The position numbers and the translations under genes are program-made. From sequence record OR204651.1: a stretch of 39,837 nucleotides of DNA; one strand, given 5' to 3'. The DNA is from Escherichia phage pO103. The notes under the pieces are model-generated. The model saw nothing but the letters and a program-made list of their open reading frames with translations. It did not search any database and was not told the origin of the DNA. Positions 379 to 22,535 of this stretch are shown in pieces. Numbering within the stretch: the first letter of the stretch is position 1; every line of letters starts with the position of its first letter.

Positions 379-401
379 TAATGCGACTCACTATTGGGAA
401 T
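379..401 (+). promoter_or_regulatory. Phage RNAP promoter phiOL-like (TAATGCGACTCACTATTGGGAAT)
   Basis: 21/23 match to T7 class promoter core; downstream GGGAATGG identical to right-end promoter at 39271. Confidence 0.6.
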
Positions 402-611
402 GGTTGTTTATAGTCTTATTACTATTCCCTTCCTTATAGGGATAACTTAAAGACTACTTAAAGAGGACTATTTGTTACTTTAAGTATTGACTCTAAGATT
501 AGATAGTGTATTATTCATCACATCAAGGCGACACGGTAACACCGGATAGCTGAGATGCCACTAGTCAAGTGGTCAAGTAGACAACCTGATAAGTCATATG
601 AAAAACAGGTA

Positions 612-641
612 TTGACAAGAAGTAAAGAAGTACGATAAGAT
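612..641 (+). promoter_or_regulatory. Host RNAP (sigma70) early promoter A1-like: TTGACA, 18-nt spacer, TAAGAT
   Basis: Consensus -35 TTGACA at 612-617 and -10 TAAGAT at 636-641. Confidence 0.6.
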
Positions 642-703
642 ACACAACGTCAGCACAACGATTATCCTCTGAAACAACATGAGGTGTCACGGTAGGAGAG
701 GTG

Positions 704-733
704 TTGACAAGCAGTAAAGATAAGATGTAAGAT
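704..733 (+). promoter_or_regulatory. Host RNAP early promoter A2-like: TTGACA, 18-nt spacer, TAAGAT
   Basis: TTGACA at 704-709, TAAGAT at 728-733; flanking sequence resembles T7 A2. Confidence 0.6.
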
Positions 734-1006: not shown

Positions 1007-1060
1007 GATTAACTCAAGGGCATACATTAAGTAACAGCGTGTGCTCTTTATGATAATCAC
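1007..1060 (+). promoter_or_regulatory. RNase III processing site R0.3-like (AACTCAAGG...CTCTTTATGAT imperfect hairpin)
   Basis: Shares the AACTCAAGG / CTTTATGAT arms seen at five other sites in this genome and in T7 RNase III sites. Confidence 0.5.
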
Positions 1061-1084
1061 TAACACACATAATGAGGCACTATC

Positions 1085-1543
1085 ATGATTTACACTAACG
1101 AACCTGCAAACGTATTCTATGTACTGGTATCAGCGTTCCGCTCTAACCTCTGCGACGAAGTAAATATGAGTCGTCATCGTCACATGGTTAACTCACTGCG
1201 TAATGCACCGCTTGAATACGGTAGCGTTGAGTCTACAGACTTGACTGGTTGTTATCGAGAGGCCATCGCAAGTGCACCGACTGAGGAACTGACCGTTCGT
1301 GTACGCTGTGCTAACAGAGCTCAAGCAATAGCGGTTGCACGTCTGGCGTGTAACGAGTTCGACCAAGATTGTGTATTGGTCTATAAGTCACAGACGCACA
1401 CGGCTGGCTTAGTGTACGCTCAAGGCATTACTGGCTATAAAGCTGAACGTCTGCCGGGTAGCTTCCAAGAAGTGCCTAAAGGCGCACCGCTTCAAGGTTG
1501 CTTCACGATTGATGAGTTCGGTCGCCGCTGGCAAGTACAGTAA
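1085..1543 (+). CDS. 0.3: Gene 0.3 S-adenosylmethionine-cleaving enzyme (T3-type SAMase / SAM lyase), anti-restriction
   Basis: 152 aa; near-identical in recalled motifs to T3 SAMase (MI.T.EPANVFYVLVSAFRSNLCDEVNMSRHRH ... GCFTIDEFGRRWQVQ); GAGG RBS upstream. Confidence 0.85.
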   Translation: MIYTNEPANVFYVLVSAFRSNLCDEVNMSRHRHMVNSLRNAPLEYGSVESTDLTGCYREAIASAPTEELTVRVRCANRAQAIAVARLACNEFDQDCVLVYKSQTHTAGLVYAQGITGYKAERLPGSFQEVPKGAPLQGCFTIDEFGRRWQVQ

Positions 1544-1600
1544 GTGATAAACTCAAGGTCGCTCCATGCGAGTGGCCTTTATGATTATCACTTTAACATG
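1544..1600 (+). promoter_or_regulatory. RNase III site R0.5-like (GTGATAAACTCAAGGTC...GGCCTTTATGATTATCAC)
   Basis: Long imperfect inverted repeat with conserved T7 RNase III arms. Confidence 0.6.
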
Positions 1601-1850: not shown

Positions 1851-2048
1851 ATGTTATATACATTTGTTGCACTCGTTTACACTCTAATCGCGCTGTACTT
1901 CCTTCGAGACTTCCGCAAGGGTCTCAAGGTACACAAGGCTAACTTCTCGCACTTAAAGTATGGCTTCCTCCCGTGCTTCACTGTCCGTGAACGCAATGGA
2001 CGCTTTAAGGCTAACAAGGTGGGTATTTTCTATGTCGCAACACACTAA
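1851..2048 (+). CDS. Hypothetical early protein, 65 aa, hydrophobic N-terminus
   Basis: ORF with GAGG RBS (1838-1841). Confidence 0.5.
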   Translation: MLYTFVALVYTLIALYFLRDFRKGLKVHKANFSHLKYGFLPCFTVRERNGRFKANKVGIFYVATH

Positions 2049-2271: not shown

Positions 2272-3357
2272 ATGAACTACACCGACATTCAGGCACGTCT
2301 GGAAATCATCAAGTCTCTTCCGATTAGCGACTTGGACAAGCGCCAGCCTCTTCTGGTTGCACTGGCTGCTGACATCGTGAACGGTGAAACATGTGATGGT
2401 AACGATACCGATGGCTTGACTGGCTTGGAGTATCAGGACTGGTGGGACACCTTGGACGCACTGATGCGTGATGCAGGGTTTCGCATGCTAGGCAATGGTC
2501 ACTTCAGCGCGGCCTACTCGCACGAAATGTTACCGGGTCGAGTCATTAAGGTTGGCTTTAAGAAAGAGGATTCAGGCGCTGCATACACTGCATTCTGTAG
2601 GATGCACCAAGGCCGAGCGGGTATCCCTAACGTCTATCACGTAGCACGTCATGCAGGTTGCTATACGGTTGTATTGGACCACTTGAATAGTTGCGACCGC
2701 GATAATTACGACCATGAGGTATACGCTGACCTCGCACGTTACTTTGTGGAGTCGGATTGCCATGACGCAAGCGACTTTGCACCGGGTGACTACGAGTTCA
2801 TTGAGACATGCAAGCTGATTCGTGAGTTCTTCAAAGGGATTGCATCCTTCGACATGCACAGTGGGAACATTATGTTCGACGATAACGATGTTCCGTACAT
2901 CACTGACCCAGTCAGCTTCTCACATGACCGTGAACGTGAGGACGGTTTCCCTCTGGACCCTGAAGCACTGCTGGCCGAGGTCGAGGCTGTAGCGCAAGAA
3001 CGCATGATTGAACGTTGCCGCAACCGCAAGGCCAAGCGTGACCCTAACGGAACCTTTCAGGTTAACCGCAAGGCCAACATGAAACGCCGTAAGCACAACC
3101 GTAAGTTACATGTCAAAGGTATGGCACAGTTTGTTAAAGGTTGCATCGAACGCAGGGCCATTGATAGAAACGAACGCCGTGCTGAGATGCTCATGGGGTC
3201 TGCATGGAATAACTTCTGGTTCCGCAATGGTCCCTCAGCGGCACGCAAGGTTGAACAAGTGAACGGCCTTAAGTGGCAACTAGGGGACCGCCTCGCAATC
3301 CAAGCGGGACTCCCTCTGAACATCGACAAGGTACTTGACGCTAAACTGATGGGCTGA
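2272..3357 (+). CDS. 0.7: Gene 0.7 serine/threonine protein kinase / host transcription shut-off protein
   Basis: 361 aa (T7 gp0.7 is 359 aa), position between 0.3 and gene 1, kinase-like N-terminal half. Confidence 0.8.
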   Translation: MNYTDIQARLEIIKSLPISDLDKRQPLLVALAADIVNGETCDGNDTDGLTGLEYQDWWDTLDALMRDAGFRMLGNGHFSAAYSHEMLPGRVIKVGFKKEDSGAAYTAFCRMHQGRAGIPNVYHVARHAGCYTVVLDHLNSCDRDNYDHEVYADLARYFVESDCHDASDFAPGDYEFIETCKLIREFFKGIASFDMHSGNIMFDDNDVPYITDPVSFSHDREREDGFPLDPEALLAEVEAVAQERMIERCRNRKAKRDPNGTFQVNRKANMKRRKHNRKLHVKGMAQFVKGCIERRAIDRNERRAEMLMGSAWNNFWFRNGPSAARKVEQVNGLKWQLGDRLAIQAGLPLNIDKVLDAKLMG

Positions 3358-3430: not shown

Positions 3431-6082
3431 ATGACTAACGTAATCAATGCACCAAAGAATGACTTCTCTGACATCGCTAACGCAATCCAGCCTTACAACA
3501 TACTGGCTGACCATTACGGCGCACAGCTTGCAGCTACACAGCTTGAGTTGGAACATGAAGCGCACACCGAGGGCGAGAAGCGTTTCCTTAAGGCAATGGA
3601 GCGTCAAATCAAAGCGGGTGAGTTCGGTGACAACGCAGTGGCTAAACCTCTCCTGTCATCCCTCGCACCAAAGTTTATCGAGGCGTGGAACACTTGGTTC
3701 ACCGAAGTAGAATCTAAGCGTGGGAAACGTCCAGTGGCCTACAATCTGGTACAGAAGATTGCACCGGAAGCTGCCGCATTCATCACACTGAAAGTCACAC
3801 TGGCTTGTCTGACCAAAGAGGAATACACCAACCTACAATCGGTTGCAACTAAGATTGGTCGTAGCATTGAAGATGAGTTGCGTTTCGGACGCATTCGTGA
3901 CGAAGAAGCGAAGCACTTTAAGAATCACGTACAGGAAGCACTGAACAAGCGCGTTGGTATCGTCTACAAGAAAGCATTCATGCAAGCTGTAGAGGGCAAG
4001 ATGTTAGACGCTGGTCAACTGCAAACCAAGTGGACCACATGGACACCTGAAGAATCAATCCACGTTGGTGTACGTATGTTGGAACTGCTCATTGGGTCTA
4101 CCGGTCTCGTTGAGTTACACCGACCGTTTGCTGGTAACGTTGAGAAGGATGGCGAGTACATTCAATTAACCGAACAATATGTTGACCTTCTGTCTAAACG
4201 TGCTGGGGCACTGGCTGCAATCGCTCCGATGTACCAACCTTGCGTGGTCCCTCCGAAGCCTTGGACTTCTCCGGTTGGTGGTGGCTATTGGGCTGCTGGT
4301 CGAAAGCCTCTCTCTCTGGTTCGTACTGGTTCCAAGAAGGGACTTGAGCGTTACAACGATGTGTATATGCCTGAAGTTTACAAGGCGGTGAACATCGCAC
4401 AGAATACTCCTTGGAAGATTAACAAGAAGGTTCTGGCAGTGGTCAACGAGATTGTGAACTGGAAGCATTGCCCGGTTGAAGATGTTCCTGCTCTGGAACG
4501 TGGGGAACTCCCGGTCAAACCTGAAGACATCGACACGAACGAAGCGTCACTCAAAGCATGGAAGAAAGCGGCCTCCGCAATCTACCGCAAAGAGAAGGCT
4601 CGCGTGTCTCGCCGTATGAGCATGGAGTTCATGTTAGGTCAGGCCAATAAGTTCGCACAGTTTAAAGCTATCTGGTTCCCGATGAACATGGACTGGCGCG
4701 GTCGAGTGTATGCAGTCCCAATGTTTAACCCGCAAGGCAACGACATGACCAAAGGGCTGCTGACCTTGGCTAAAGGTAAACCGATTGGTGTCGATGGGTA
4801 CTACTGGCTGAAGATTCACGGTGCTAACACTGCTGGCGTGGACAAAGTGGACTTTGCAGAACGCATCAAGTTCATTGATGACAACCATGAGAACATCATG
4901 AGCGTTGCGGCTGACCCGATTGCTAACACTTGGTGGGCCGAGCAAGACTCTCCGTTCTGCTTCCTCGCGTTCTGCTTCGAGTATGCTGGAGTTCAACACC
5001 ACGGTATGAACTATAACTGCTCTCTTCCGCTGGCGTTTGATGGTAGCTGCTCCGGTATTCAGCACTTCTCCGCGATGCTTCGTGATGAAGTAGGTGGTCG
5101 TGCGGTTAACCTGCTACCAAGCAAGGAAGTCCAGGACATCTATCGTATTGTTGCCGAACGTGTGAACGAGATGCTCCGCGAAGCGGTAATCAACGGTACT
5201 GATAACGAAGTGGAGACCGTGACAAACAAGGACACTGGTGAAATCACTGAGAAGCTCAAGCTGGGAACGAAAGAGTTAGCTGGTCAGTGGCTGGCCTACG
5301 GTGTGACTCGCAAGGTCACTAAACGTTCTGTCATGACGTTGGCTTACGGTTCCAAAGAGTACGGCTTCCGCGACCAAGTTCTTGAGGATACCATTCAGCC
5401 AGCTATCGACGATGGCAAGGGATTGATGTTCACTCAACCGAACCAAGCTGCTGGCTATATGGCTAAACTGATTTGGGACGCTGTAACGGTGACTGTGGTC
5501 GCTGCGGTTGAAGCAATGAACTGGCTGAAGTCTGCCGCTAAACTACTGGCTGCTGAAGTCAAGGACAAGAAGACTAAAGAAGTTCTCCGCAAGCGCTGCG
5601 CGGTGCATTGGGTAACACCTGATGGCTTCCCTGTGTGGCAGGAGTATCGCAAGGCAGTACAGACTCGTTTGAACCTGATGTTCTTGGGTCAGATTCGTTT
5701 GCAGCCTACCGTGAACACCAATAAGGATAGCGGAATTGATGCACGTAAGCAGGAGTCAGGTATCGCACCTAACTTTGTTCACTCAATGGACGGTAGCCAT
5801 CTGCGAATGACTGTAGTGCGCTCCAATGAGGTCTACGGTGTGGAATCCTTCGCACTGATTCATGACTCATTTGGTACTATCCCTGCTGACGCTGGCAACC
5901 TGTTTAAAGCAGTGCGTGAAACGATGGTCAACACTTACGAAGAAAACGATGTACTCGCAGACTTCTATGAGCAATTCGCTGATCAGTTACACGAATCACA
6001 GTTAGACAAGATGCCTGAGATGCCAGCTAAAGGCGCTCTGGACCTGCAAGAAATCCTCAAGTCAGACTTCGCGTTTGCCTAA
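3431..6082 (+). CDS. 1: Gene 1 single-subunit DNA-dependent RNA polymerase
   Basis: 883 aa, same length as T7 RNAP; extensive recalled identity; specificity loop has T7-type NTNKDS. Confidence 0.98.
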   Translation: MTNVINAPKNDFSDIANAIQPYNILADHYGAQLAATQLELEHEAHTEGEKRFLKAMERQIKAGEFGDNAVAKPLLSSLAPKFIEAWNTWFTEVESKRGKRPVAYNLVQKIAPEAAAFITLKVTLACLTKEEYTNLQSVATKIGRSIEDELRFGRIRDEEAKHFKNHVQEALNKRVGIVYKKAFMQAVEGKMLDAGQLQTKWTTWTPEESIHVGVRMLELLIGSTGLVELHRPFAGNVEKDGEYIQLTEQYVDLLSKRAGALAAIAPMYQPCVVPPKPWTSPVGGGYWAAGRKPLSLVRTGSKKGLERYNDVYMPEVYKAVNIAQNTPWKINKKVLAVVNEIVNWKHCPVEDVPALERGELPVKPEDIDTNEASLKAWKKAASAIYRKEKARVSRRMSMEFMLGQANKFAQFKAIWFPMNMDWRGRVYAVPMFNPQGNDMTKGLLTLAKGKPIGVDGYYWLKIHGANTAGVDKVDFAERIKFIDDNHENIMSVAADPIANTWWAEQDSPFCFLAFCFEYAGVQHHGMNYNCSLPLAFDGSCSGIQHFSAMLRDEVGGRAVNLLPSKEVQDIYRIVAERVNEMLREAVINGTDNEVETVTNKDTGEITEKLKLGTKELAGQWLAYGVTRKVTKRSVMTLAYGSKEYGFRDQVLEDTIQPAIDDGKGLMFTQPNQAAGYMAKLIWDAVTVTVVAAVEAMNWLKSAAKLLAAEVKDKKTKEVLRKRCAVHWVTPDGFPVWQEYRKAVQTRLNLMFLGQIRLQPTVNTNKDSGIDARKQESGIAPNFVHSMDGSHLRMTVVRSNEVYGVESFALIHDSFGTIPADAGNLFKAVRETMVNTYEENDVLADFYEQFADQLHESQLDKMPEMPAKGALDLQEILKSDFAFA

Positions 6083-6089: not shown

Positions 6090-6112
6090 TAATACGACTC
6101 ACTATTGGGAGC
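6090..6112 (+). promoter_or_regulatory. Phage promoter phi1.1 (TAATACGACTCACTATTGGGAGC); followed by AT-rich region, candidate primary origin
   Basis: 22/23 match to T7 consensus; location equals T7 phi1.1A/B origin region. Confidence 0.85.
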
Positions 6113-6172
6113 CTACGGGCTTCCTAAACTTTAAGATAACTTTAAGTTCTAACTCTAAGAGGAAACAACAGT

Positions 6173-6322
6173 ATGCGTACCAACTTTGAACCAACCACTA
6201 AGCGCAACACCATCATCAATGAACATGGTGCTGAACGGCAGGAACGTAAAGACCGCATGAAGAAACGTCACAAAACAAAGCGTGGCAACTCTGAGAAACG
6301 CAACTGGAAGGAGGCACTCTAA
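6173..6322 (+). CDS. 1.1: Gene 1.1 small basic protein (49 aa)
   Basis: Hand-translated ORF MRTNFEPTTKRN...NWKEAL; below ORF-track cut-off; stop overlaps 1.2 start (TAATG); T7 gp1.1 is similarly small and basic. Confidence 0.6.
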   Translation: MRTNFEPTTKRNTIINEHGAERQERKDRMKKRHKTKRGNSEKRNWKEAL

Positions 6323-6594
6323 TGGGTCGCTTATACAGTGGTAACTTAATAGCATACAAAGACGCTATCGAACGACTTAAAGAAGACCACGATGCAAATG
6401 TGGTCGTTGAGACTTATCGCTATGAGGACTTCACACAACGACGGATGGTAGCCGGAGAGACACTTCGAGTGGTCTTACGGAATGGCTTAATGCTGACCGC
6501 TAAGTGTTTCGAACAGGATGATGCAGACGTTCGCTGTAATGCACAGACTGAATGGCTCCGCAAGGTACACAGTGATATGAAGCACTGGAAGTAA
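6322..6594 (+). CDS. 1.2: Gene 1.2 host dGTP triphosphohydrolase inhibitor
   Basis: 90 aa; N-terminus MGRLYSGNL matches T7 gp1.2. Confidence 0.8.
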   Translation: MGRLYSGNLIAYKDAIERLKEDHDANVVVETYRYEDFTQRRMVAGETLRVVLRNGLMLTAKCFEQDDADVRCNAQTEWLRKVHSDMKHWK

Positions 6595-6615
6595 TACGAC
6601 TCACTATTGCGAGAG
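6593..6615 (+). promoter_or_regulatory. Phage promoter phi1.3 (TAATACGACTCACTATTGCGAGA)
   Basis: Consensus -17 to -1 with variant initiating region. Confidence 0.75.
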
Positions 6616-6662
6616 GTAAACTCAAGGTCATCCGAAAGGTTGGACTTTGTGATTAACTTTTG
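6613..6662 (+). promoter_or_regulatory. RNase III site R1.3-like (TAAACTCAAGGTCATCCGAAAGGTTGGACTTTGTGATTAAC)
   Basis: Conserved arms. Confidence 0.6.
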
Positions 6663-6702
6663 TTTAAACATTAACCCATAACACACACATAGGAGTTCCA
6701 TC

Positions 6703-7785
6703 ATGGAAATCAACTTTAAGACTTCGCCACATAAAGCTGTATCATTCGTTGAGTCTGCTGTTAATAAAGCTCTCGACAAAGCTGGCTACCTGATTGCTGA
6801 CATTAAATATGATGGCGTTCGTGGTAACATTGTAGTTGACCAGTTCGGTGTGGCTGCGTGGCTGTCACGCGTCAGCAAGACCATCCCGGCACTTGAGCAC
6901 CTAAATAGTGAATCACTAAGCTACCGCTGGGTGCAGCTTCTTAGCGATGACCGCTGTATCTTCCCTGATGGCTTCATGCTTGATGGTGAACTGATGGTCA
7001 AAGGAGTAGACTTCAACACAGGGTCTGGCTTACTGAGGACCAAGTGGCTCAAGCAGAAGAACTTCATGTACACTGATTGTTCTGAGTGGGGCAAGGACTG
7101 TACGGGAAAACCTTTCGAGCTAGACGTTAAGCGACTCAAAGTTATCCTCTATGGTGTCATGCCGTTTGACTCTATGGTCTCCGGTGAGACCTACGAAGTG
7201 ATGAACCTACTGATGCGCGAGCATGTTAAGGCTATGCTTCCTGTTCTGCGCGAGCACTTCCCTGAAATCGAATGGGACATCTCTGAGAGCTACGAAGTGT
7301 ACGATATGGTAGAACTGAATGCCCTCTATGAGAAAGCCCGTGCCGATGGTCATGAAGGTCTGGTAGTCAAAGACCCGCTGGGATTCTATATGCGCGGTAA
7401 GAAGTCCGGCTACTGGAAGATGAAGCCTGAGTGTGAAGCTGATGGTGTAATCGTGGGACTCAATTGGGGGACTAAAGGTCTCGCTAATGAAGGCAAAGTT
7501 ATTGGCTTCGAGGTTCTCTTGGAGTCCGGTCGCGTAGTTAATGCCAACAACATTAGCCAAGAGTTGATGGACGAGTTCACCGAGAAGGTAAAGGAGAAGA
7601 CACTAAGTGACTGCGGGTTCTTCAGTCCATACGGAATCGGAGACAATGATGCCTGTACGCGTAACCCCTTCGAGGGCTGGCAGTGCCAAGTGGCCTACAT
7701 GGAGGAAACTCCTGATGGTTCTCTGCGTCACCCATCGTTCGTTATGTTCCGAGGAACTGAGGATAACCCAAAGGAGAAAATGTAA
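6703..7785 (+). CDS. 1.3: Gene 1.3 ATP-dependent DNA ligase
   Basis: 360 aa; adenylation motif KYDGVR; matches T7 ligase length (359 aa). Confidence 0.95.
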   Translation: MEINFKTSPHKAVSFVESAVNKALDKAGYLIADIKYDGVRGNIVVDQFGVAAWLSRVSKTIPALEHLNSESLSYRWVQLLSDDRCIFPDGFMLDGELMVKGVDFNTGSGLLRTKWLKQKNFMYTDCSEWGKDCTGKPFELDVKRLKVILYGVMPFDSMVSGETYEVMNLLMREHVKAMLPVLREHFPEIEWDISESYEVYDMVELNALYEKARADGHEGLVVKDPLGFYMRGKKSGYWKMKPECEADGVIVGLNWGTKGLANEGKVIGFEVLLESGRVVNANNISQELMDEFTEKVKEKTLSDCGFFSPYGIGDNDACTRNPFEGWQCQVAYMEETPDGSLRHPSFVMFRGTEDNPKEKM

Positions 7786-7967
7786 TGCTTATCTTTGACG
7801 AGAACGGTTGGAGAGTGTATCAACACCCACACCTGATGATATTCCACATATCAAAGTGGATGGAAGGAGATGACCGGAGAAGCTACGGGAGAACTTGGGA
7901 CTACTTTACTGTCCATGAGTGCCATAGTATTAAGGAAGTCAAAGAGTACCTACGAAACAATATGTAA
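7785..7967 (+). CDS. Hypothetical protein (60 aa), gene 1.4 position
   Basis: ORF overlapping ligase stop (ATGA-type coupling). Confidence 0.4.
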   Translation: MLIFDENGWRVYQHPHLMIFHISKWMEGDDRRSYGRTWDYFTVHECHSIKEVKEYLRNNM

Positions 7968-7975
7968 AGACAAAC

Positions 7976-8005
7976 GGTCAGTCCTTAAGGGGCTGGCCTT
8001 TTTGC
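7976..8005 (+). terminator. Early (host RNAP) rho-independent terminator TE-like: GGTCAG stem, CTGGCC, then TTTTT
   Basis: Hairpin followed by T-run just before the first class II promoter, as in T7. Confidence 0.55.
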
Positions 8006-8009
8006 GTTT

Positions 8010-8032
8010 CTATACGACTCACTATGGAGGAA
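8010..8032 (+). promoter_or_regulatory. Candidate phage promoter (phi1.5-like), variant: TATACGACTCACTAT-GGAGGA, one nt short before GG
   Basis: Core CGACTCACTAT present but -17 region and -1 deviate. Confidence 0.45.
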
Positions 8033-8039
8033 CAACCTC

Positions 8040-8120
8040 ATGCTATTTCTAATCGTCGCTATCATTGCTGCCACCTTTGCTCTCGTTATCATTGATGACA
8101 ACTGCTGGCCTGATTGCTAA
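8040..8120 (+). CDS. Small hydrophobic peptide, 26 aa (MLFLIVAIIAATFALVIIDDNCWPDC), gene 1.5 position
   Basis: GGAGG RBS 7 nt upstream; single predicted TM helix; below ORF-track cut-off. Confidence 0.35.
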   Translation: MLFLIVAIIAATFALVIIDDNCWPDC

Positions 8121-8147
8121 TATGACTCACATATGGAGGACACAACT

Positions 8148-8411
8148 ATGTTAAGACTTCACTTCAATAAATCTAATGGTATCTTTTCGGCTCGTGGTGC
8201 TGACCGCTCTACGGTTCTGGCCTCTGAGAAACACGCAGTCATCCCTAAAGTGCTTGGCTCGACCATTGAGTTAGCACCTCGTGTTCACGCTGTAATTACT
8301 ACTGGCTTATATAAAGAAGCGACCACTGGCTCCCGGCCTTTCATTCCGGTTCTCGTCACCCGTTTCCCTAAAGTCCGTCTGGTAATTGCGCGTATCAAGG
8401 AGGTGTTCTAA
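8148..8411 (+). CDS. Gene 1.6-like hypothetical protein (87 aa)
   Basis: GGAGGA RBS at 8135-8140; T7 gp1.6 is 88 aa at the same position. Confidence 0.55.
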   Translation: MLRLHFNKSNGIFSARGADRSTVLASEKHAVIPKVLGSTIELAPRVHAVITTGLYKEATTGSRPFIPVLVTRFPKVRLVIARIKEVF

Positions 8412-8878
8412 TGACTTCTTATGACGCCATGATTATCAAACTTATTAACATGAACGAAGGCAGTCCAGATCATTTGTCTAACTGTTCCTTCCACTGTGCT
8501 GGAGTTCCTTGTAGTATCTGCCCAGCCGGTTATGATGAGGATATGACATTAGGTGAAATCCGAGCGATGGACCCACGTGCTCCCATAATGCCGGAGAAAC
8601 CAGCAGAGGTAGCTCCTACAGAGGACCAACCACAAGATATAGAGGGTGTTCGGACTCCGAGCCACTATATGTTGTTTGACGACATTGAGGCTATCGAAGT
8701 GATTGCTCGTTCGATGACCCGTGAGCAGTTCAAGGGGTACTGCTTAGGGAATATCCTTAAGTATCGCCTGCGTGCTGGTAAGAAATCTGAACTGGCATTC
8801 TTAGAGAAGGACATGGCGAAAGCTGGGTTCTATGGTGAACTGTTCGAGAAACATAAGGACAAGTGCTATGATTATTAA
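8411..8878 (+). CDS. 1.7: Gene 1.7 nucleotide (dNMP) kinase homolog
   Basis: 155 aa; C-terminal region SHYMLFDDIEAIEVIARSMT.EQFKGYC.GNILKYRLRAGKKSELA.LEKD.AKA.FY.ELFEKHKDKCY matches recalled T7 gp1.7. Confidence 0.75.
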   Translation: MTSYDAMIIKLINMNEGSPDHLSNCSFHCAGVPCSICPAGYDEDMTLGEIRAMDPRAPIMPEKPAEVAPTEDQPQDIEGVRTPSHYMLFDDIEAIEVIARSMTREQFKGYCLGNILKYRLRAGKKSELAFLEKDMAKAGFYGELFEKHKDKCYDY

Positions 8879-9041
8879 GGTCGAGTATGTGGGTGAAGAT
8901 GATATAATGGCACTAGTTAAACGCCATGACATATTCTTTGCAGAGCGAACATGGGACGGTAAGTTCTATAAGATCATGAACAAGCATGACGAAGAAGTAT
9001 ATCTTTCACGTAACGAGGTGATTGAATATGACGATGCTTAG
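8868..9041 (+). CDS. Gene 1.8-like hypothetical protein (57 aa)
   Basis: ORF starting MIIKVEYVG, overlaps 1.7 stop; AAGGA RBS. Confidence 0.45.
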   Translation: MIIKVEYVGEDDIMALVKRHDIFFAERTWDGKFYKIMNKHDEEVYLSRNEVIEYDDA

Positions 9042-9132
9042 ACCGAGTGAGTGGTGTGAGCGTATGTTCGAAAAGACGGGAAACGCTGACTACCTCGAAA
9101 TGTACAACCTGTGGAAAGGGAGAGGACAATGA
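9028..9132 (+). CDS. Small ORF (34 aa, [34 protein letters not shown])
   Basis: Strong GAGGTGA RBS 6 nt upstream; stop overlaps gene 2 start (ATGA). Confidence 0.3.
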
Positions 9133-9320
9133 GCAATTTAAACAAAGGGTCACTGGTCAACGGTGACAAGAAGTTCTTCGCAACGGTAGAAGGCCAAGGC
9201 CAATCGTTCGAAGTCCCTGTGTTCGCTATGTCTATCGAAGAGGCCAACGAGTTAGCTGAGTGGCAATATGTCCCGGCTGGCTTCGCAGTGACACGCATTC
9301 GTCCAGACCGAAAGGTTTAA
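9129..9320 (+). CDS. 2: Gene 2 inhibitor of host RNA polymerase (Gp2)
   Basis: 63 aa; [10 protein letters not shown]...FEVP...[14 protein letters not shown] matches T7 Gp2. Confidence 0.85.
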
Positions 9321-9340
9321 TAGGACTCACTATTGGGGAG
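9318..9340 (+). promoter_or_regulatory. Phage promoter phi2.5 (TAATAGGACTCACTATTGGGGAG); transcript 5-prime stem-loop GGGGAGAC...GTTTCCCC
   Basis: Consensus match; precedes SSB gene. Confidence 0.8.
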
Positions 9341-9393
9341 ACACATCGTTTCCCCCACTTTTAACTTTAAGAAACCTCAAAAGGAGAAACATC

Positions 9394-10095
9394 ATGGCTT
9401 TCAATAAACGTAAAGTATTCACTTCCGCTCGTGGCGTTGCTGAACCTTACTGCTATCTGGCTAAACCAGACTTCGGTAGCGGTGACTTCAAGAACGAACG
9501 TGGTGTCTACAAAGTGTCACTGACTGTATCCAACGACGACCCTCGATGTCAGAAAATGATTGACGAGATTGTCGAAGCCCATGATACGGACTACGCTGCT
9601 CGACTCGAAGAGTACGAAGCGAACCCGCCGAAAGTTGTCAAGGGTAAGAAACCGCTGAAGCCATACGTTGGCGACATGCCTTTCATGGATAACGAAGATG
9701 GAACCACTACGTTCAACTTTAAGTGTTACGGCTCATACACTGATAAGAAGACTGGTGAGAACAAACCAATCGACTTGGCTATTGTGGACTCCAAAGGTAA
9801 GCGCATTCGTGGTGAGCGTCCGGCTATCTCAGGTGGCTCTGAACTGAAGATTAAATACACCCTGTTCCCTTACGGCTGGTCTGCTGTGGCAGGTGCTTCC
9901 GTTAAGCTGCAACTGGATTCCGTGATGCTGATTAAGCTGGTCGAGTTCGGTGGTGGTGAGGATGACTGGGGTGATGAAGTCGAAGAAGACGGTTATGTTG
10001 CTGATGAAGCACAGACCCGCAAGCCGCAGAACGACTCTGGCTGGGATGAAGAACCAGAAGAAGAGGATGATGAAGACGAAGACGGTGACTTTTAA
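9394..10095 (+). CDS. 2.5: Gene 2.5 single-stranded DNA-binding protein
   Basis: 233 aa; acidic C-terminal tail ending DEDGDF as in T7 gp2.5. Confidence 0.95.
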   Translation: MAFNKRKVFTSARGVAEPYCYLAKPDFGSGDFKNERGVYKVSLTVSNDDPRCQKMIDEIVEAHDTDYAARLEEYEANPPKVVKGKKPLKPYVGDMPFMDNEDGTTTFNFKCYGSYTDKKTGENKPIDLAIVDSKGKRIRGERPAISGGSELKIKYTLFPYGWSAVAGASVKLQLDSVMLIKLVEFGGGEDDWGDEVEEDGYVADEAQTRKPQNDSGWDEEPEEEDDEDEDGDF

Positions 10096-10515
10096 ATGAA
10101 CGTGCGGGAGAAAATCCTTGAGAGAATCAAGGTGACTCCTGCTGGATGTTGGGAGTGGACAGGTGCTGTGAACTCTAAAGGGTATGGTCAGGTATGGTGT
10201 GGAGACTCTAAGAAGACTCTATACTGTCACCGCATTATGTCCAACGCCCCAAAAGGTTCTACAGTCCTGCACTCCTGTGATAACCCATTATGTTGCAACC
10301 CTGCGCACCTATCAATTGGTACTCCTAAAGAGAACTCTGATGACATGGTGAATAAGGGTCGCTCTCACAAAGGATACAAACTATGTGATGAAGATGTGAT
10401 GGCTATTATAGAGTCCAGCGAGTCCGGCAAGCGCCTATCGCAGACCTATGGAGTCTCCCAACAGACTATCTGTGACATTAAAATGGGGAGGACTTATGGC
10501 AGGTTACGGCGCTAA
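10096..10515 (+). CDS. HNH-family endonuclease (homing-endonuclease-like), gene 2.8 position
   Basis: 139 aa; motif YCHRI...LHSCDNPLCCNPAHLSIGT plus C-terminal HTH-like segment; start coupled to 2.5 stop, 3-prime end overlaps gene 3. Confidence 0.75.
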   Translation: MNVREKILERIKVTPAGCWEWTGAVNSKGYGQVWCGDSKKTLYCHRIMSNAPKGSTVLHSCDNPLCCNPAHLSIGTPKENSDDMVNKGRSHKGYKLCDEDVMAIIESSESGKRLSQTYGVSQQTICDIKMGRTYGRLRR

Positions 10516-10948
10516 AGGAATCCGAAAGGTTGGGGCATTCCGCTCTGGCCTTGAGGACAAAGTGAGTAAACAACTCGAAGGAAAGGGTGTTAAGTTTGAT
10601 TATGAATTGTGGAAGATTCCCTATGTGGTTCCCGCAAGTAATCATGTGTACACACCAGATTTTTTATTACCTAACGGTATCTTTGTGGAGACAAAAGGCT
10701 TATGGGAAAGTGACGACCGAAAGAAGCACTTGCTGATTCGTGAACAGTACCCTGAACTGGACATCCGTCTGGTCTTTTCAAGCAGTCGCACCAAGATTTA
10801 CAAAGGGTCTCCAACAAGCTACGCAGAATTTTGTGAAAAGCATGGCATCTTATTTGCTGACAAGCTTATTCCAGTAGCGTGGCTCAAGGAAGCGTCCCGG
10901 TCCGTACCGTTTGATAAACTAAAGACCAAGAAGGAGAAGAAGAAATGA
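10496..10948 (+). CDS. 3: Gene 3 endonuclease I (Holliday junction resolvase)
   Basis: 150 aa from MAGYGAKGIRKVGAFRSGLEDK; near-identical to recalled T7 gp3; GGGGAGGA RBS. Confidence 0.9.
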   Translation: MAGYGAKGIRKVGAFRSGLEDKVSKQLEGKGVKFDYELWKIPYVVPASNHVYTPDFLLPNGIFVETKGLWESDDRKKHLLIREQYPELDIRLVFSSSRTKIYKGSPTSYAEFCEKHGILFADKLIPVAWLKEASRSVPFDKLKTKKEKKK

Positions 10949-11400
10949 GTAAGGTACAATTCAAACCACGCGCTGTGACAGAAGCAATCTTTGTCCACTG
11001 TAGCGCAACCAAAGCGTCCATGAATGTTGGGCTGCGTGAAATCCGTCAGTGGCATAAAGAACAAGGCTGGCTCGATGTAGGCTACCACTTCATTATTCGC
11101 CGTGATGGGACAATCGAAGAAGGCCGTCCGGTCGATGTCGTTGGGTCTCACGTTAAGGACTGGAACAGTAAGTCAGTCGGTGTGTGCCTCGTAGGTGGTA
11201 TCGACGATAAAGGTAAGTTCGAAGCTAACTTTACGCCAGCACAGATGCACTCTCTTAAAGAGAAACTTGCAGACCTGAAGGACATGTATCCTGATGCAGA
11301 AATTAAAGCTCATCATGACGTGGCACCTAAAGCCTGTCCGTCCTTCAACTTGAGCCGCTGGCTGAAGACTGGAGAACTGGTTACAAGCGATTGGGGTTAA
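10945..11400 (+). CDS. 3.5: Gene 3.5 lysozyme (N-acetylmuramoyl-L-alanine amidase) / RNAP inhibitor
   Basis: 151 aa; AIFVHCSATK...REIRQWHKEQGWLDVGYHFII matches T7 lysozyme. Confidence 0.95.
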   Translation: MSKVQFKPRAVTEAIFVHCSATKASMNVGLREIRQWHKEQGWLDVGYHFIIRRDGTIEEGRPVDVVGSHVKDWNSKSVGVCLVGGIDDKGKFEANFTPAQMHSLKEKLADLKDMYPDAEIKAHHDVAPKACPSFNLSRWLKTGELVTSDWG

Positions 11401-11420
11401 TAGAACTCACTATGGGAGGA
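11398..11420 (+). promoter_or_regulatory. Candidate phage promoter phi3.8-like (TAATAGAACTCACTAT-GGGAGGA, one nt short), followed by GGGAGGACCGAAAGGTTTCTCCC stem-loop
   Basis: Core ACTCACTAT plus GGGAGG; immediately after lysozyme stop. Confidence 0.5.
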
Positions 11421-11470
11421 CCGAAAGGTTTCTCCCTTTGTTCGCTAAAATTGTATAAGGAGTAATCACT

Positions 11471-13679
<2,209 letters not shown>

Positions 13680-13686
<7 letters not shown>

Positions 13687-13702
13687 GACTCACTAATGGG
13701 AC
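13680..13702 (+). promoter_or_regulatory. Candidate phage promoter phi4.3-like (AAATAAGACTCACTAATGGGACA)
   Basis: Core GACTCACTA with 3-4 mismatches in -17 to -12. Confidence 0.45.
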
Positions 13703-13746
13703 AGACACTCTGTTCCAACTTATCAATCCTCTTAAGGAGAATCACA

Positions 13747-13959
13747 ATGTTTAAATTCATCAATACTCTTGGTAAACTGGTAGTTAAAATGTACTTCCGT
13801 GAAGCTAAACGTCTGAACGACAAGGCACGTAAGGACGCTGCACAGGCTCAACGCTTGGCTAAACAGGCTCGTCTGCTGTCTGAAGATGCAAGTGCTGGCG
13901 TAACGTCTGCTGCTAAGATTGCAGCTAAAGCAACCGACCTCAACAAATTCTTCCTGTAA
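13747..13959 (+). CDS. 4.3: Gene 4.3 protein (70 aa)
   Basis: MFKFINTLGKLVVKMYFREAKRLNDKARK resembles T7 gp4.3 (70 aa); AAGGAGA RBS. Confidence 0.7.
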   Translation: MFKFINTLGKLVVKMYFREAKRLNDKARKDAAQAQRLAKQARLLSEDASAGVTSAAKIAAKATDLNKFFL

Positions 13960-13970
13960 GGGTTACTGTG

Positions 13971-14150
13971 ATGATTACGATAACCCTTGTGCTCACTCTG
14001 ATAACTGCGAGTGGGCAATCCATAAGCCAAGTCCCAATCACAGCACCGAAAGCTGAGGCATACGAGATATGTGAGCGTGAAGGTCGCTCGTGGTCTAAAA
14101 ACTTATTGAAGAATGGCAGGGTTCTTACTGCCGAATACAACTGCATATAA
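13971..14150 (+). CDS. Hypothetical small protein (59 aa), hydrophobic N-terminus (possible signal peptide or TM)
   Basis: ORF following 4.3; weak RBS. Confidence 0.4.
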   Translation: MITITLVLTLITASGQSISQVPITAPKAEAYEICEREGRSWSKNLLKNGRVLTAEYNCI

Positions 14151-14165
14151 TAGGAGTGACACATC

Positions 14166-14468
14166 ATGGCTATTAAATTCCCCGGTAACACTATCCGTCT
14201 GTCCGACACCATCGACCAGTATGCTCGTCGAGTTCACATCAACGTCCGCAACGGCAAGGTAACTCTGGTCTACCGTTGGAAAGACCGTAAGTCCACCAAG
14301 GCGCACACACAGCGTGTAACTTTGGATGACATACAGACAGGTCGTCTGACGGCTTCCATTGCTGTAGCTGCTACTGTGGCTGTAGGTGAAGATAAGACTC
14401 GTGAACTCCTGCTGTCCAAAGTGGCTGGCGAAGAGGGCATGATTCTGGCTGCGAAGTCTGGAATCTAA
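14166..14468 (+). CDS. Hypothetical protein (100 aa), gene 4.5 position
   Basis: Strong RBS TAGGAGTGA; ORF. Confidence 0.55.
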   Translation: MAIKFPGNTIRLSDTIDQYARRVHINVRNGKVTLVYRWKDRKSTKAHTQRVTLDDIQTGRLTASIAVAATVAVGEDKTRELLLSKVAGEEGMILAAKSGI

Positions 14469-14469
14469 A

Positions 14470-14516
14470 GAGTTAAACTAAAGGTCATCTCCGGGTGGCC
14501 TTCGTGATTAACTTTT
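14470..14516 (+). promoter_or_regulatory. RNase III site R4.7-like (TTAAACTAAAGGTCATCTCCGGGTGGCCTTCGTGATTAAC)
   Basis: Conserved arms. Confidence 0.55.
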
Positions 14517-14525
14517 GTATGAAAT

Positions 14526-14548
14526 CTATTCAACTCACTAATGGGAGA
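14526..14548 (+). promoter_or_regulatory. Candidate degenerate phage promoter (CTATTCAACTCACTAATGGGAGA)
   Basis: Core ACTCACTAATGGGAGA intact, upstream half divergent. Confidence 0.4.
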
Positions 14549-14556
14549 ACAACACT

Positions 14557-14955
14557 ATGCGTAATCGTAATGTAATCGAAGCTGAAATCTCTAAGCTGCA
14601 AGCTGAACTGGCTGATGTCAAAGAGTATGAATGCGCTCGTGACTCTGCGATACACATCCTGAAGAACTTAGGGTGGACCCGTAAGTACGGCAAGTGGGTG
14701 AAACCTGCCAAGGCAAACACCAAGCTGTTCGATAAGGACACCATGACCCACATTAAGGCAGGTGACTTCTGCGCATCAACTGAGACATCCTCTCTATGGT
14801 ACGTGCGCACGGTCGCTGGCAACATCTGCTGGTGCTCACGAGTGTCCCGCATTGCTCCTAATGGAACCTTAGTGACCAGCAACAACGTTGGAATCAAAGC
14901 TGAGAACCTGAAGGTAATCAACGTGAAAGACTATATGGGATACACCCATCGTTAA
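14557..14955 (+). CDS. Gene 4.7-like hypothetical protein (132 aa)
   Basis: ORF; size and position match T7 gp4.7 (135 aa). Confidence 0.55.
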   Translation: MRNRNVIEAEISKLQAELADVKEYECARDSAIHILKNLGWTRKYGKWVKPAKANTKLFDKDTMTHIKAGDFCASTETSSLWYVRTVAGNICWCSRVSRIAPNGTLVTSNNVGIKAENLKVINVKDYMGYTHR

Positions 14956-14974
14956 ACTTTAAGGAGTAAACACA

Positions 14975-17089: not shown

Positions 17090-17108
17090 TTAACAGGAGA
17101 AATATATC

Positions 17109-17411
17109 ATGGCTATTACTAAACGTTTTAAAGTATCATTCGAAGTTACTGCTGTAATCGATAGCGAGTCTGAGAACAACCTGAATGATTTACTCGTAGA
17201 CATCGCTAAGAAAGCCGCCACTGGTGAGGAACTTAACCCGCTTAAACGTGAGTTGCTAGTTCAGGGTCTAACCTATGGGCCAGAAGGTGCTGCCACATTC
17301 TGTATCAAGCAGAGTCTTCGCAATTTTATTCGGGAGTGTCACGGCGAACTGAGTTCAACAGAGAGAAAGCACATGCGATTCTCCCCAGCTACTATTCGTG
17401 AGGTGAAGTAA
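17109..17411 (+). CDS. 5.5: Gene 5.5 protein (H-NS-binding in T7)
   Basis: 100 aa; MAITKRFKVSFEVTA and SPATIREV match T7 gp5.5. Confidence 0.75.
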   Translation: MAITKRFKVSFEVTAVIDSESENNLNDLLVDIAKKAATGEELNPLKRELLVQGLTYGPEGAATFCIKQSLRNFIRECHGELSSTERKHMRFSPATIREVK

Positions 17412-17620
17412 TGGGTGATTATCTACGTGTACTGGCGGCTATCAAAAGCTGCCCTAAGACCTTTCAGTCGAACTATGTACGCAACAATGCGTCACTGGTG
17501 GCTGAGGCTGCGAGTCGTGGCCATATCTCTTGCCTATCAGTCGATGGGCGTAATGCTGGCGCTTGGGAAGTAACAGGTTCTGGTGTTCGTTTCCTGAAGA
17601 AGATGGGAGGTTGTGTATGA
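17411..17620 (+). CDS. 5.7: Gene 5.7 protein
   Basis: 69 aa; AIKSCPKTFQSNYVRNNASLVAEAASRGHISCL identical to recalled T7 gp5.7. Confidence 0.8.
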   Translation: MGDYLRVLAAIKSCPKTFQSNYVRNNASLVAEAASRGHISCLSVDGRNAGAWEVTGSGVRFLKKMGGCV

Positions 17621-18531: not shown

Positions 18532-18618
18532 TGTTCACAGCCATAGCCTTCTCTATGGTGTGGGCTGCATTTATAGCTAAGAGTGTGTAACTCTAGGCAT
18601 TCTTCTCGACAGTGAAAT

Positions 18619-18641
18619 TAATACGACTCACTATTGAGAGG
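18619..18641 (+). promoter_or_regulatory. Phage promoter phi6.5 (TAATACGACTCACTATTGAGAGG)
   Basis: Consensus match. Confidence 0.85.
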
Positions 18642-18693
18642 GGTGCCTATATGATACCTACTTTAAGTTCTAACTTTAAGGAGAACATTAACT

Positions 18694-18942: not shown

Positions 18943-18955
18943 CACAGGAGGTCTT

Positions 18956-19228: not shown

Positions 19229-19246
19229 CTAGGAGGAGTTCGGTAA

Positions 19247-19928: not shown

Positions 19929-19943
19929 TTAAGGAGGCACTAA

Positions 19944-22532: not shown

Positions 22533-22535
22533 AAT

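What the first reader, a model, noticed from the sequence alone, without database searches (positions are those of the whole stretch)
1085..1543. Mosaic early region: T3-type SAMase in a phage with T7-type RNAP specificity
Gene 0.3 here is the T3-family SAM-cleaving enzyme, not the T7 Ocr DNA mimic. Yet the RNA polymerase specificity loop (NTNKDS) and every phage promoter are T7-type (CGACTCACTA core), not T3-type (CCCTCACTAAAG). The genome therefore combines T3-like anti-restriction with T7-like transcription specificity, implying past recombination between lineages.
Basis: partly seen in the sequence, partly recalled or inferred. Interest (0 to 1): 0.5.

Follow-up and report, generated by a model that had tools for sequence, protein, structure and literature searches.

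The report
Ordinary Berlinvirus SAM-lyase early gene
The window is a whole T7-like phage genome of the known genus Berlinvirus, and pairing a T3-type SAM-cleaving anti-restriction gene with T7-like promoters is normal for that genus, not evidence of a special hybrid.

Summary
ORF 1085-1543 is a T3-type SAM lyase: Pfam PF23780 E 4.6e-41, 88% identical to the solved T3 enzyme, catalytic E68/Q94/D95 kept. No Ocr homologue is present. The RNA polymerase carries T7-type contact residues (R96, K98, R746, N748, R756, Q758). All 14 phage promoters have a T7-like core, and no T3-type core exists.

The genome is a Berlinvirus. Median protein identity is 96% to A7, 94% to WW1 and P151, and 91-92% to BA14 and Kvp1. 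It is 65% to both T7 and T3, so it is a third lineage and not a T7xT3 hybrid.

All eight SAMase-bearing Berlinviruses I examined combine a SAMase with the same T7-type contact residues. BA14 and Kvp1, the two with annotated promoters, share the window's promoter consensus TAATACGACTCACTATTGGGAGA. The Kvp1 paper (2008) already describes the T3-like early genes. N748 is shared with T7 and the more distant K1F, so it looks ancestral.

Synonymous-site divergence of gene 0.3 matches the backbone, so there was no recent T3 import. The 0.3 slot does exchange alleles across the subfamily: the SAMase tree contradicts the polymerase tree. Relatives A7 and P151 have also imported a T7-like ocr cassette, bounded by RNase III-type hairpins.

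The feature is already known and of low interest.

The parts
379..401 (+). Phage promoter phiOL (TAATGCGACTCACTATTGGGAAT)
   Evidence: Core match. It scores 27.2 bits with a T7 promoter matrix, 1.9 with a T3 matrix and 27.5 with a BA14 matrix.
487..733 (+). Three sigma-70-type early promoters (487-514, 612-641, 704-733) upstream of gene 0.3
   Evidence: Each matches 10 of 12 consensus positions. They are collinear with the host-RNAP promoters annotated in BA14. Inference: gene 0.3 is an early gene read by host RNA polymerase.
1008..1072 (+). Weak hairpin upstream of 0.3, at the position of RNase III site R0.3 in T3
   Evidence: Fold -11.5 kcal/mol, z -2.0. T3 annotates R0.3 at the same relative position. 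This assignment is tentative.
1085..1543 (+). Gene 0.3: T3-type S-adenosylmethionine lyase (SAMase), 152 aa, with an internal in-frame ATG at codon 28 (nt 1166), where T3 annotates 0.3B
   Evidence: Identified; catalytic residues checked. Identity is 100% to P151, 96% A7, 93% WW1, 88% T3 and 82% BA14/Kvp1.
1541..1597 (+). R0.5-type RNase III hairpin directly after the 0.3 stop codon
   Evidence: Fold -23 kcal/mol, z -5.4, 0 of 200 shuffles as stable. It is 94% identical to T7 1429-1481. The same sequence is annotated as the R0.5 RNase III site in T7.1. Related copies occur in about 600 phage records.
1617..1817 (+). 66-aa early ORF of unknown function (phrog_6500)
   Evidence: phrog_6500 E 3.5e-43. 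It lies downstream of SAMase here but upstream of SAMase in WW1.
1851..2048 (+). Gene 0.6-like ORF (phrog_2385)
   Evidence: phrog_2385 E 5.5e-28. Its DNA matches the 0.6 regions of BA14, Kvp1 and T3.
2272..3357 (+). Gene 0.7 serine/threonine kinase
   Evidence: phrog_2828 E 5e-178. Identity is 92% to A7 and 52-53% to both T7 and T3.
3431..6082 (+). Gene 1 single-subunit RNA polymerase; N748 codon at 5672-5674, NTNKDS at 5714-5731
   Evidence: Pfam RNA_pol E 2.5e-111. Identity is 97-99% to Berlinvirus, 76% to T7 and 75% to T3. Residues 96/98/746/748/756/758 are R K R N R Q, as in T7.
6090..39293 (+). Thirteen further phage promoters. Their 23-nt sites start at 6090, 6592, 8010, 9318, 13681, 14526, 18619, 21549, 22536, 23924, 26983, 34862 and 39271.
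   Evidence: Found. Consensus is TAATACGACTCACTATTGGGAGA, the same as the BA14 and Kvp1 consensus. T7-matrix scores are 14.5-36.7 bits and T3-matrix scores -4.7 to 17.9.

Best explanation
Gene 0.3 (1085-1543) encodes an active T3-type SAM lyase. It is the first early gene, transcribed by host RNA polymerase from the promoters at 487-733, and its message is bounded by RNase III-type hairpins. By analogy with T3, it cleaves S-adenosylmethionine and binds the host SAM synthetase MetK. That starves SAM-dependent type I restriction and BREX of their cofactor before the rest of the genome enters. The phage is an ordinary member of genus Berlinvirus. In that genus a SAMase in the 0.3 slot and a polymerase with T7-type promoter contacts go together as the normal state. 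The T7-like promoter specificity is inherited from the common ancestor of these phages, not acquired by recombination. SAMase versus Ocr is a swappable cassette in the 0.3 slot, not a marker of a T3 or T7 lineage. Shown here: gene identity, residue conservation, genus membership, promoter set, and the lack of any signal of recent transfer. Inferred: enzymatic activity, MetK binding, RNase III processing, and cross-recognition by T7 polymerase.
For: Identity and intact active site: with residue roles.

Early-gene context.

Genus membership:
- DNA is 88-93% identical over 80-90% of the window to Berlinvirus genomes only.
- Per-gene medians are 96% to A7 and 65% to both T7 and T3.

Combination typical of the genus:
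- Eight SAMase-bearing Berlinviruses all have residues K98, R746, N748, R756 and Q758.
- The BA14 and Kvp1 annotated promoter consensus is identical to the window's.
- It is described for Kvp1 in PMC2579914.

No recent import: four-fold-site identity of 0.3 does not differ significantly from the backbone against T3, BA14, A7 or WW1.

N748 looks ancestral: it is present in K1F, Berlinvirus and T7, while T3 and K11 differ.

The 0.3 type is independent of polymerase type:
- SAMase occurs with four different contact-residue sets.
- K1F (Ocr) and a CR44b-like phage (SAMase) have polymerases 98.2% identical.
- SAMase is found in 473 phage records and Ocr in 572, across many genera.
Against: - Gene 0.3 is the most T3-like gene in the genome: 88% aa, rank 1 of 32.
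- Its dS to T3 (1.20) is lower than the polymerase's (2.02, saturated). Its dS to BA14 (0.92) is about twice the polymerase's (0.47).
- The SAMase tree is incongruent with the polymerase tree. So 0.3 has not been strictly vertical over the deeper history of the genus.
- K5, a MetK-contact residue in T3, is N here.
- No activity was measured.
- Calling N748 ancestral rests on a small NJ tree rooted on K1F.
Confidence: 0.85

Rival explanations
1. One reading: this particular genome is a recombinant that joined a T3-lineage anti-restriction gene to a T7-lineage transcription system.
For: - SAMase is 88% identical to T3's and is the top-ranked gene against T3.
- The polymerase contact residues and the promoter core are T7-type.
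Against: - Polymerase identity is 76% to T7 and 75% to T3, but 97-99% to Berlinvirus.
- The whole genome is equidistant from T7 and T3: medians 65.2 and 64.7, with 4 genes nearer T3 and 3 nearer T7 by more than 5 points.
- Synonymous sites of 0.3 against T3 are near saturation like the backbone: 0.55 against 0.435, p 0.07.
- The same combination occurs in all eight SAMase-bearing Berlinviruses examined.
Confidence: 0.03
2. Older, genus-level mosaicism. The T3-type 0.3 allele moved horizontally between ancestors of Teetrevirus and Berlinvirus, and alleles keep being replaced within Berlinvirus. The early region is then mosaic in deep history even though this genome is typical. This is compatible with the best explanation, not exclusive of it.
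For: - Berlinvirus polymerases are 96-99% alike, yet their SAMases fall into three allele classes. Class III (PYps49T/DS_BP2) is only 67-71% identical to the others.
- T3-group SAMases group with classes I and II at 100% bootstrap, and Berlinvirus SAMase monophyly gets 0%.
- T3 and K11 are equally far from each other in polymerase (75%) as T3 is from Berlinvirus, but their SAMases are 42% identical against 88%.
- dS is compressed.
- The site pattern switches at nt 375 of the gene: 37:2 becomes 0:17, Fisher p 1.7e-12.
Against: - The gene is short (152 codons), dS is above 1, and trees are NJ only.
- Strong purifying selection can inflate aa identity.
- The intragenic switch is explained most simply by WW1 acquiring a BA14-like 3' end (98% identical). 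That needs no exchange with T3.
- The direction and number of events are unresolved.
Confidence: 0.5
3. The ORF is a decayed or repurposed SAMase homologue that no longer cleaves SAM, for example acting only through MetK binding or not at all.
For: - K5N at a MetK-contact position.
- The subclade containing the window has about 18 aa changes relative to the state shared by T3 and BA14.
- dN/dS is higher than for the polymerase: 0.08-0.24 against 0.03-0.10.
Against: - The ORF is full length and aligns to T3 without gaps.
- E68, Q94 and D95 are intact.
- dN/dS is well below 1.
- The protein is 100% conserved in P151.
Confidence: 0.05

Closest known systems
Berlinvirus phages with a gene 0.3 SAMase (BA14 EU734171, Kvp1 FJ194439, vB_ShiP-A7 MK685668, vB_YenP_WW1 OP161218, P151 PP083182)
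   Same: - Same gene order, with a 152-aa SAMase in the first early slot.
- Polymerase 98-99% identical.
- Identical promoter consensus TAATACGACTCACTATTGGGAGA in BA14 and Kvp1, the two with annotated promoters.
- The SAMase protein is 100% identical to P151's.
   Different: - No database genome exceeds about 93% DNA identity over 85-90% of the window.
- The window lacks the ocr cassette of A7 and P151.
- It orders SAMase and orf66 differently from WW1.
- Its genes 11-12, gene 17, gene 3 and ligase are divergent.
Phage T3 gene 0.3 SAM lyase (PDB 7OCK, 8BB1)
   Same: 88% aa identity with no gaps. Catalytic E68/Q94/D95 and MetK contacts I2/T4/Q103/T104 are conserved. It has the same slot after the early promoters, an internal start at codon 28, and an R0.5-type hairpin after the stop codon.
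   Different: The genomic backbone is only about 65% identical. T3 polymerase has D748/R98/K96 and CCC at -12 to -10 of its promoters. K5 is N here. Synonymous sites are nearly saturated (dS 1.2).
Phage T7 transcription system (RNA polymerase and class II/III promoters)
   Same: R96, K98, R746, N748, R756 and Q758 are identical. The specificity loop matches at 26 of 32 positions. The promoter consensus is identical from -17 to -2.
   Different: The polymerase is only 76% identical overall. E222 is G. Promoter position -1 is T (13 of 14) instead of A. T7 carries Ocr, not SAMase, in the 0.3 slot.
T3 as a described recombinant (a T7 promoter annotated upstream of gene 17 that T3 polymerase does not use)
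   Same: It is a documented case of T7-group genomes exchanging segments. The T3 record itself annotates a non-functional T7 promoter at 32757-32779.
   Different: In T3 a foreign, unusable promoter marks the exchanged segment. In the window every promoter fits the resident polymerase, and nothing marks 0.3 as foreign.

Membership tests
S-adenosylmethionine lyase family (Pfam PF23780; T3 SAMase type) | Profile match above the curated threshold over the full domain | tested here: met
   140.3 bits against a cut-off of 28, residues 13-151 on profile positions 1-132 of 133; phrog_2226 E 1.7e-52.
S-adenosylmethionine lyase family (Pfam PF23780; T3 SAMase type) | Active-site residues E68, Q94 and D95 (T3 numbering) | tested here: met
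   All are identical in a gap-free alignment. Their roles come from mutagenesis reported in bioRxiv 10.1101/2023.02.27.530186.
S-adenosylmethionine lyase family (Pfam PF23780; T3 SAMase type) | MetK-binding surface (N-terminal I2/T4/K5 and loop Q103/T104) | tested here: inconclusive
   I2, T4, Q103 and T104 are conserved, but K5 is N. The effect on binding is unknown.
S-adenosylmethionine lyase family (Pfam PF23780; T3 SAMase type) | Cleavage of SAM to MTA and homoserine lactone; relief of type I R-M / BREX restriction | not testable with these tools
   Needs an enzyme assay and plating tests.
Genus Berlinvirus (Studiervirinae) | Genome-wide nucleotide similarity to genus members, with collinear gene order | tested here: met
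   88-93% identity over 80-90% of both halves of the window, to classified Berlinviruses only. Median aa identity is 88-96%.
Genus Berlinvirus (Studiervirinae) | Genus-specific promoter consensus and polymerase | tested here: met
   The consensus is identical to BA14 and Kvp1. The polymerase is 96-99% identical to nine Berlinvirus polymerases.
T7-type promoter specificity class | Polymerase contact residues N748, R746, R756, Q758, K98 and R96 | tested here: met
   All are identical to T7. T3 differs at 96, 98 and 748. The importance of these residues is taken from PMC8874028.
T7-type promoter specificity class | Promoter bases -12 to -10 = CGA and -17 to -13 = TAATA | tested here: met
   12-14 of the 14 promoters carry the T7 base at each of -12, -11 and -10, and the consensus equals T7 from -17 to -2.
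T7-type promoter specificity class | Actual cross-recognition by T7 RNA polymerase, given -1 T instead of A | not testable with these tools
   Needs in vitro transcription.
T3-type promoter specificity class | D748/R98 in the polymerase and CCC at -12 to -10 in promoters | tested here: not met
   The polymerase has N748/K98. The T3 core pattern gives only chance-level hits. T3-matrix scores are -4.7 to 17.9 bits against 14.5-36.7 for the T7 matrix.
Ocr DNA-mimic anti-restriction protein | A homologue of T7 gp0.3 Ocr encoded in the genome | tested here: not met
   tblastn with T7, A7 and P151 Ocr gave a best E-value of 4.3.

The most novel reading that the evidence does not exclude
In the window/A7/WW1/P151 subclade, the early region may be built from cassettes, each bounded by a copy of a roughly 50-nt R0.5-type RNase III hairpin. 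That hairpin is conserved at 84-94% across hundreds of Studiervirinae. It would then serve two roles: RNA-processing site, and portable homology for recombination. Through it, anti-defence genes (SAMase, Ocr, orf66) could be inserted, deleted, reordered or stacked between phage genera. The window would be the SAMase-only state of a slot that relatives have filled with SAMase plus a T7-derived ocr.
Probability: 0.35. Interest if true: 0.4.

Novelty: already known. Interest (0 to 1): 0.15.

Why it matters
It matters little as a discovery. A SAMase in the 0.3 slot combined with T7-like promoters is the published, typical state of Berlinvirus.

The useful correction is conceptual. SAMase versus Ocr is not a T3 versus T7 lineage marker. 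It is a swappable anti-restriction cassette found with at least four polymerase specificities. The T7-type N748 contact looks ancestral.

If the hairpin-bounded cassette idea held, it would give a concrete mechanism for how T7-like phages shuffle and stack anti-defence genes. That is relevant to choosing or engineering therapeutic phages against hosts carrying type I R-M or BREX.

Tried and rejected
1. Recent T3-to-window transfer of 0.3. Rejected: four-fold-site identity does not differ significantly from the backbone.

2. The T3-like 3' end of 0.3 (92% nt over the last 84 nt) as a T3-derived tract. Not claimed: only 8 of 12 four-fold sites are identical. The site-pattern switch is explained more simply by WW1 taking a BA14-like 3' end, which is 98% identical.

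3. A hidden Ocr remnant in the window. None found.

4. T3-type promoters. None found.

5. Rfam and tRNA scans of the whole window. Nothing found.

6. Literature.
   - Searches for BA14 together with SAMase found no paper in the held library.
   - Chen and Schneider 2005 is not held.
   - The older work on BA14 polymerase template specificity could not be read, so it is not cited.

7. Exact terminal repeat. The window holds only one copy.

8. AlphaFold2 model of the gp16 insertion without an alignment. Mean pLDDT was 41, so it was unusable and no fold search was run.

9. Pfam found no family for the 0.7 kinase or orf83. PHROGs did.

Full report
WHAT THE WINDOW IS

The 39,837-base window is a complete T7-like phage genome with one copy of the terminal repeat. 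Megablast of both halves finds only genus Berlinvirus as close kin. These include A7, P483, P151, WW1, D226, BA14, Kvp1, 285P and FE44, at 88-93% identity over 80-90% of the query. Nothing is closer than that.

Per-gene tblastn gives the following median protein identities:

| Reference | Median aa identity |
|---|---|
| A7 | 95.9% |
| WW1 | 94.2% |
| P151 | 93.7% |
| Kvp1 | 92.2% |
| BA14 | 91.4% |
| Berlin | 88.2% |
| T7 | 65.2% |
| T3 | 64.7% |

Of the 29 genes shared with both T7 and T3, four are nearer T3 and three nearer T7 by more than five points. The genome is a third lineage, equidistant from T7 and T3. It is not a hybrid of them.

CHECK OF THE OBSERVATION

All parts of the observation are real.

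Gene 0.3:
- ORF 1085-1543 is 152 aa.
- It matches Pfam PF23780 (S-AdoMet lyase) at E 4.6e-41 and phrog_2226 at E 1.7e-52.
- It matches the solved T3 SAM lyase (7OCK/8BB1) at E 1.8e-89, with 88% identity and no gaps.
- The residues whose mutation abolishes T3 SAMase catalysis (E68, Q94, D95) are conserved. So are most MetK contacts (I2, T4, Q103, T104). K5 is N.
- No Ocr homologue exists in the window.

Promoters:
- The T7-like core CGACTCACTA occurs 15 times on the + strand, against 2.6 expected.
- Fourteen of these sites are full 23-nt promoters.
- The T3 core is absent.

RNA polymerase:
- It carries T7-type residues at the positions known to set T7 versus T3 specificity: R96, K98, N748, plus R746, R756 and Q758. 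Their roles are taken from PMC8874028.

Two refinements:
The classical determinant is N748, in QTRLNLMF.
- The promoters equal T7 only from -17 to -2. Position -1 is T in 13 of 14 window promoters, against A in 16 of 17 T7 promoters.

WHY THE COMBINATION IS NOT A MOSAIC OF THIS GENOME

Polymerase. It is 97-99% identical to Berlinvirus polymerases, 76% to T7 and 75% to T3. T7 and T3 are 82% identical to each other.

Polymerase tree. In an NJ tree rooted on K1F, Berlinvirus branches outside a group holding T7, T3 and K11/KP32. N748 is found in K1F, Berlinvirus and T7. T3 has D and K11 has K. The simplest reading is that the T7-type contact is ancestral and that T3's is derived.

Promoters. The window's consensus TAATACGACTCACTATTGGGAGA is letter for letter the consensus of the promoters annotated in BA14 and Kvp1.

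Genus-wide pattern. All eight SAMase-bearing Berlinviruses examined have the same contact residues. The Kvp1 paper of 2008 already states that Kvp1 has T3-like gp0.3, 0.6 and 0.7, and promoters closest to phage Berlin (PMC2579914).

Neutral sites. At four-fold degenerate sites, gene 0.3 diverges from each reference about as the backbone does:

| Reference | Gene 0.3 | Backbone | p |
|---|---|---|---|
| T3 | 0.55 | 0.435 | 0.07 |
| BA14 | 0.65 | 0.71 | 0.26 |
| A7 | 0.89 | 0.80 | 0.06 |
| WW1 | 0.85 | 0.80 | 0.46 |

So the high protein identity to T3 (88%, the top gene of 32) mostly reflects constraint. It does not indicate a recent transfer.

WHAT IS TRUE IN THE RECOMBINATION IDEA

The 0.3 slot does not follow the backbone over deeper time.

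- Allele classes. Berlinvirus polymerases are 96-99% alike, but their SAMases form three classes:
  - class I: window, P151, A7, WW1;
  - class II: BA14, Kvp1, 82-88% identical to class I;
  - class III: PYps49T, DS_BP2, only 67-71% identical to the others.
- Tree conflict. The SAMases of T3 and phiSG-JL2 are 85-89% identical to classes I and II. In 500 NJ bootstraps, the T3 group joins classes I and II to the exclusion of class III in 100%. Berlinvirus SAMases are monophyletic in 0%.
- Synonymous distances:

| Pair | dS, gene 0.3 | dS, polymerase |
|---|---|---|
| window-T3 | 1.20 | 2.02 |
| window-BA14 | 0.92 | 0.47 |
| window-A7 | 0.19 | 0.29 |

- Switch inside the gene. In nt 1-375 the informative sites support (window, WW1 | T3, BA14) over (window, T3 | WW1, BA14) by 37 to 2. 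In nt 376-459 they support (window, T3 | WW1, BA14) by 17 to 0. Fisher p is 1.7e-12. The simplest cause is WW1 having taken a BA14-like 3' end, which is 98% identical.
- Same swap in another genus. K1F (Ocr) and a CR44b-like Kayfunavirus (SAMase) have polymerases 98.2% identical.
- Spread. SAMase homologues occur in 473 phage records and Ocr in 572, across many genera. SAMase is found with four different polymerase contact sets.

So the gene in the 0.3 slot is a swappable anti-restriction module, and allele exchange across the subfamily is real. It is a property of the group. It does not make the T7-like transcription system of this phage foreign.

THE REAL T7-DERIVED PIECE IS IN THE RELATIVES, NOT HERE

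A7 carries ocr upstream of its SAMase. P151 carries ocr-0.4 downstream of a SAMase whose protein is identical to the window's.

These ocr segments are 90% (A7) and 86% (P151) identical to T7 DNA. The proteins are 95.6% and 90.6% identical to T7 Ocr. The backbone is only about 65-73% identical to T7 at the DNA level. These segments are imports from a T7-like lineage.

Each extra cassette is bounded by a copy of the hairpin that lies at 1541-1597 in the window:
- It folds at -23 kcal/mol, z -5.4.
- It is 94% identical to T7 1429-1481, which is annotated as the R0.5 RNase III site in T7.1.
- A7, WW1 and P151 have two copies each. The window has one. BA14, Kvp1 and Berlin have none.
- The 66-aa ORF at 1617-1817 sits after SAMase here and before it in WW1.
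- Copies of the hairpin at 84-94% identity occur in about 600 phage records, at several genome positions.

My inference, not shown, is that these conserved processing sites also serve as recombination joints for gain, loss and reordering of cassettes.

MECHANISM

Gene 0.3 follows three sigma-70-type promoters, so host polymerase should read it as the first early gene.

The rest is by homology with T3, as described in eLife 2021 PMC7877911 and bioRxiv 10.1101/2023.02.27.530186. The protein should cleave SAM as a lyase. It should also bind MetK, lowering SAM and disabling type I restriction and BREX.

Activity, MetK binding with N5, RNase III cleavage, and use of the -1 T promoters by T7 polymerase are all untested.

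VERDICT

The feature is already known and its interest is low.

THINGS SEEN IN PASSING

The genome is mosaic elsewhere relative to its nearest kin:
- Genes 11-12 are at most 85% identical to anything in the phage collection.
- The tail fibre's best matches are T3/T7-type fibres at only 61%.
- Gene 3 is divergent, and a fragment like T7 gene 2.8 lies next to it.
- There is a Kvp1-type HNH endonuclease.
- A rare 188-aa GNAT-like insertion sits inside the ejected core protein gp16. It is found in only 13 of 50,697 phage records.

Noticed in passing
window 32488-33051 (inside gp16, 30349-34860, GTG start): The internal virion protein gp16 is 1503 aa, against 1315-1318 aa in BA14, P151 and T7. The difference is a 188-aa insertion. 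Scanned alone, the insertion passes the Pfam GNAT acetyltransferase threshold: PF00583, 24.1 bits against 20.7, with an RRKGIA motif. The insertion occurs in only 13 of 50,697 phage records, always inside gp16. The hosts are scattered: Klebsiella, Yersinia, Shigella, Pectobacterium and Enterobacter phages. A7 has it plus a further coiled-coil-like stretch. An enzyme domain in a protein that is ejected into the cell could be an injected effector. The single-sequence AlphaFold model was unusable (pLDDT 41).
   Followed up: partly
window 34930-36399: The best matches of the gp17 tail fibre in the whole phage collection are T3, T7M, YpP-R and phiA1122 fibres, at only 60.7% identity over 87%. Berlinvirus fibres match less well: 52-59% aa over 60-69% of the protein, against 76% over 60% for T7 and T3. 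The protein has the T7 tail-fibre N-terminal domain and a gp37 trimerisation region at aa 300-379. This is a new fibre allele and a real cross-lineage mosaic piece.
   Followed up: partly
window 23939-26954: Tail tube genes 11 and 12 are at most 85% identical at the DNA level to anything in the phage collection. Their four-fold-site identity to A7, WW1 and BA14 is 42-53%. For those three references pooled over all genes it is 0.71-0.80. This block comes from an unsampled lineage.
   Followed up: partly
window 10184-10948: A 55-aa ORF (10184-10351) resembles part of T7 homing-endonuclease gene 2.8, at 79% nt. It lies just upstream of gene 3. Gene 3 (10448-10948) is about 80% aa identical to every reference, with saturated synonymous sites, unlike its neighbours. 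This may be a scar of endonuclease-driven replacement.
   Followed up: no
window 13234-13686: An HNH homing endonuclease (Pfam HNH_3 E 2.2e-12, with a C-terminal HTH) is 98% identical to the copy after gene 4 in Kvp1. A7 and WW1 lack it.
   Followed up: no
L004 (A7) 38595-38984 and L008 (P151) 28335-28930: Two close relatives carry both a SAMase and a T7-derived ocr, in opposite orders. Each ocr cassette is flanked by copies of the R0.5-type hairpin. The P151 SAMase is not annotated in its GenBank record.
   Followed up: yes
L006 (phage Berlin) 1-1280: The type phage of the genus, Berlin, has no gene 0.3 at all: neither SAMase nor Ocr is annotated, and tblastn with the window's SAMase finds nothing. 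So the slot can also be empty.
   Followed up: partly
window 1-200 and 39600-39837: Only one copy of the terminal repeat is present. The left end (TCTCATAGTT...) matches the terminal repeats of BA14 and Kvp1, but the window's right end does not repeat it.
   Followed up: yes
window 6322-6594, 6703-7785, 17109-17411: Genes 1.2, 1.3 (ligase) and 5.5 differ sharply among otherwise close relatives. For example, gene 1.2 is 97% identical to A7 but 31% to WW1, and gene 5.5 is 93% to A7 but 47-60% to the others. These are further allele-swap sites.
   Followed up: no
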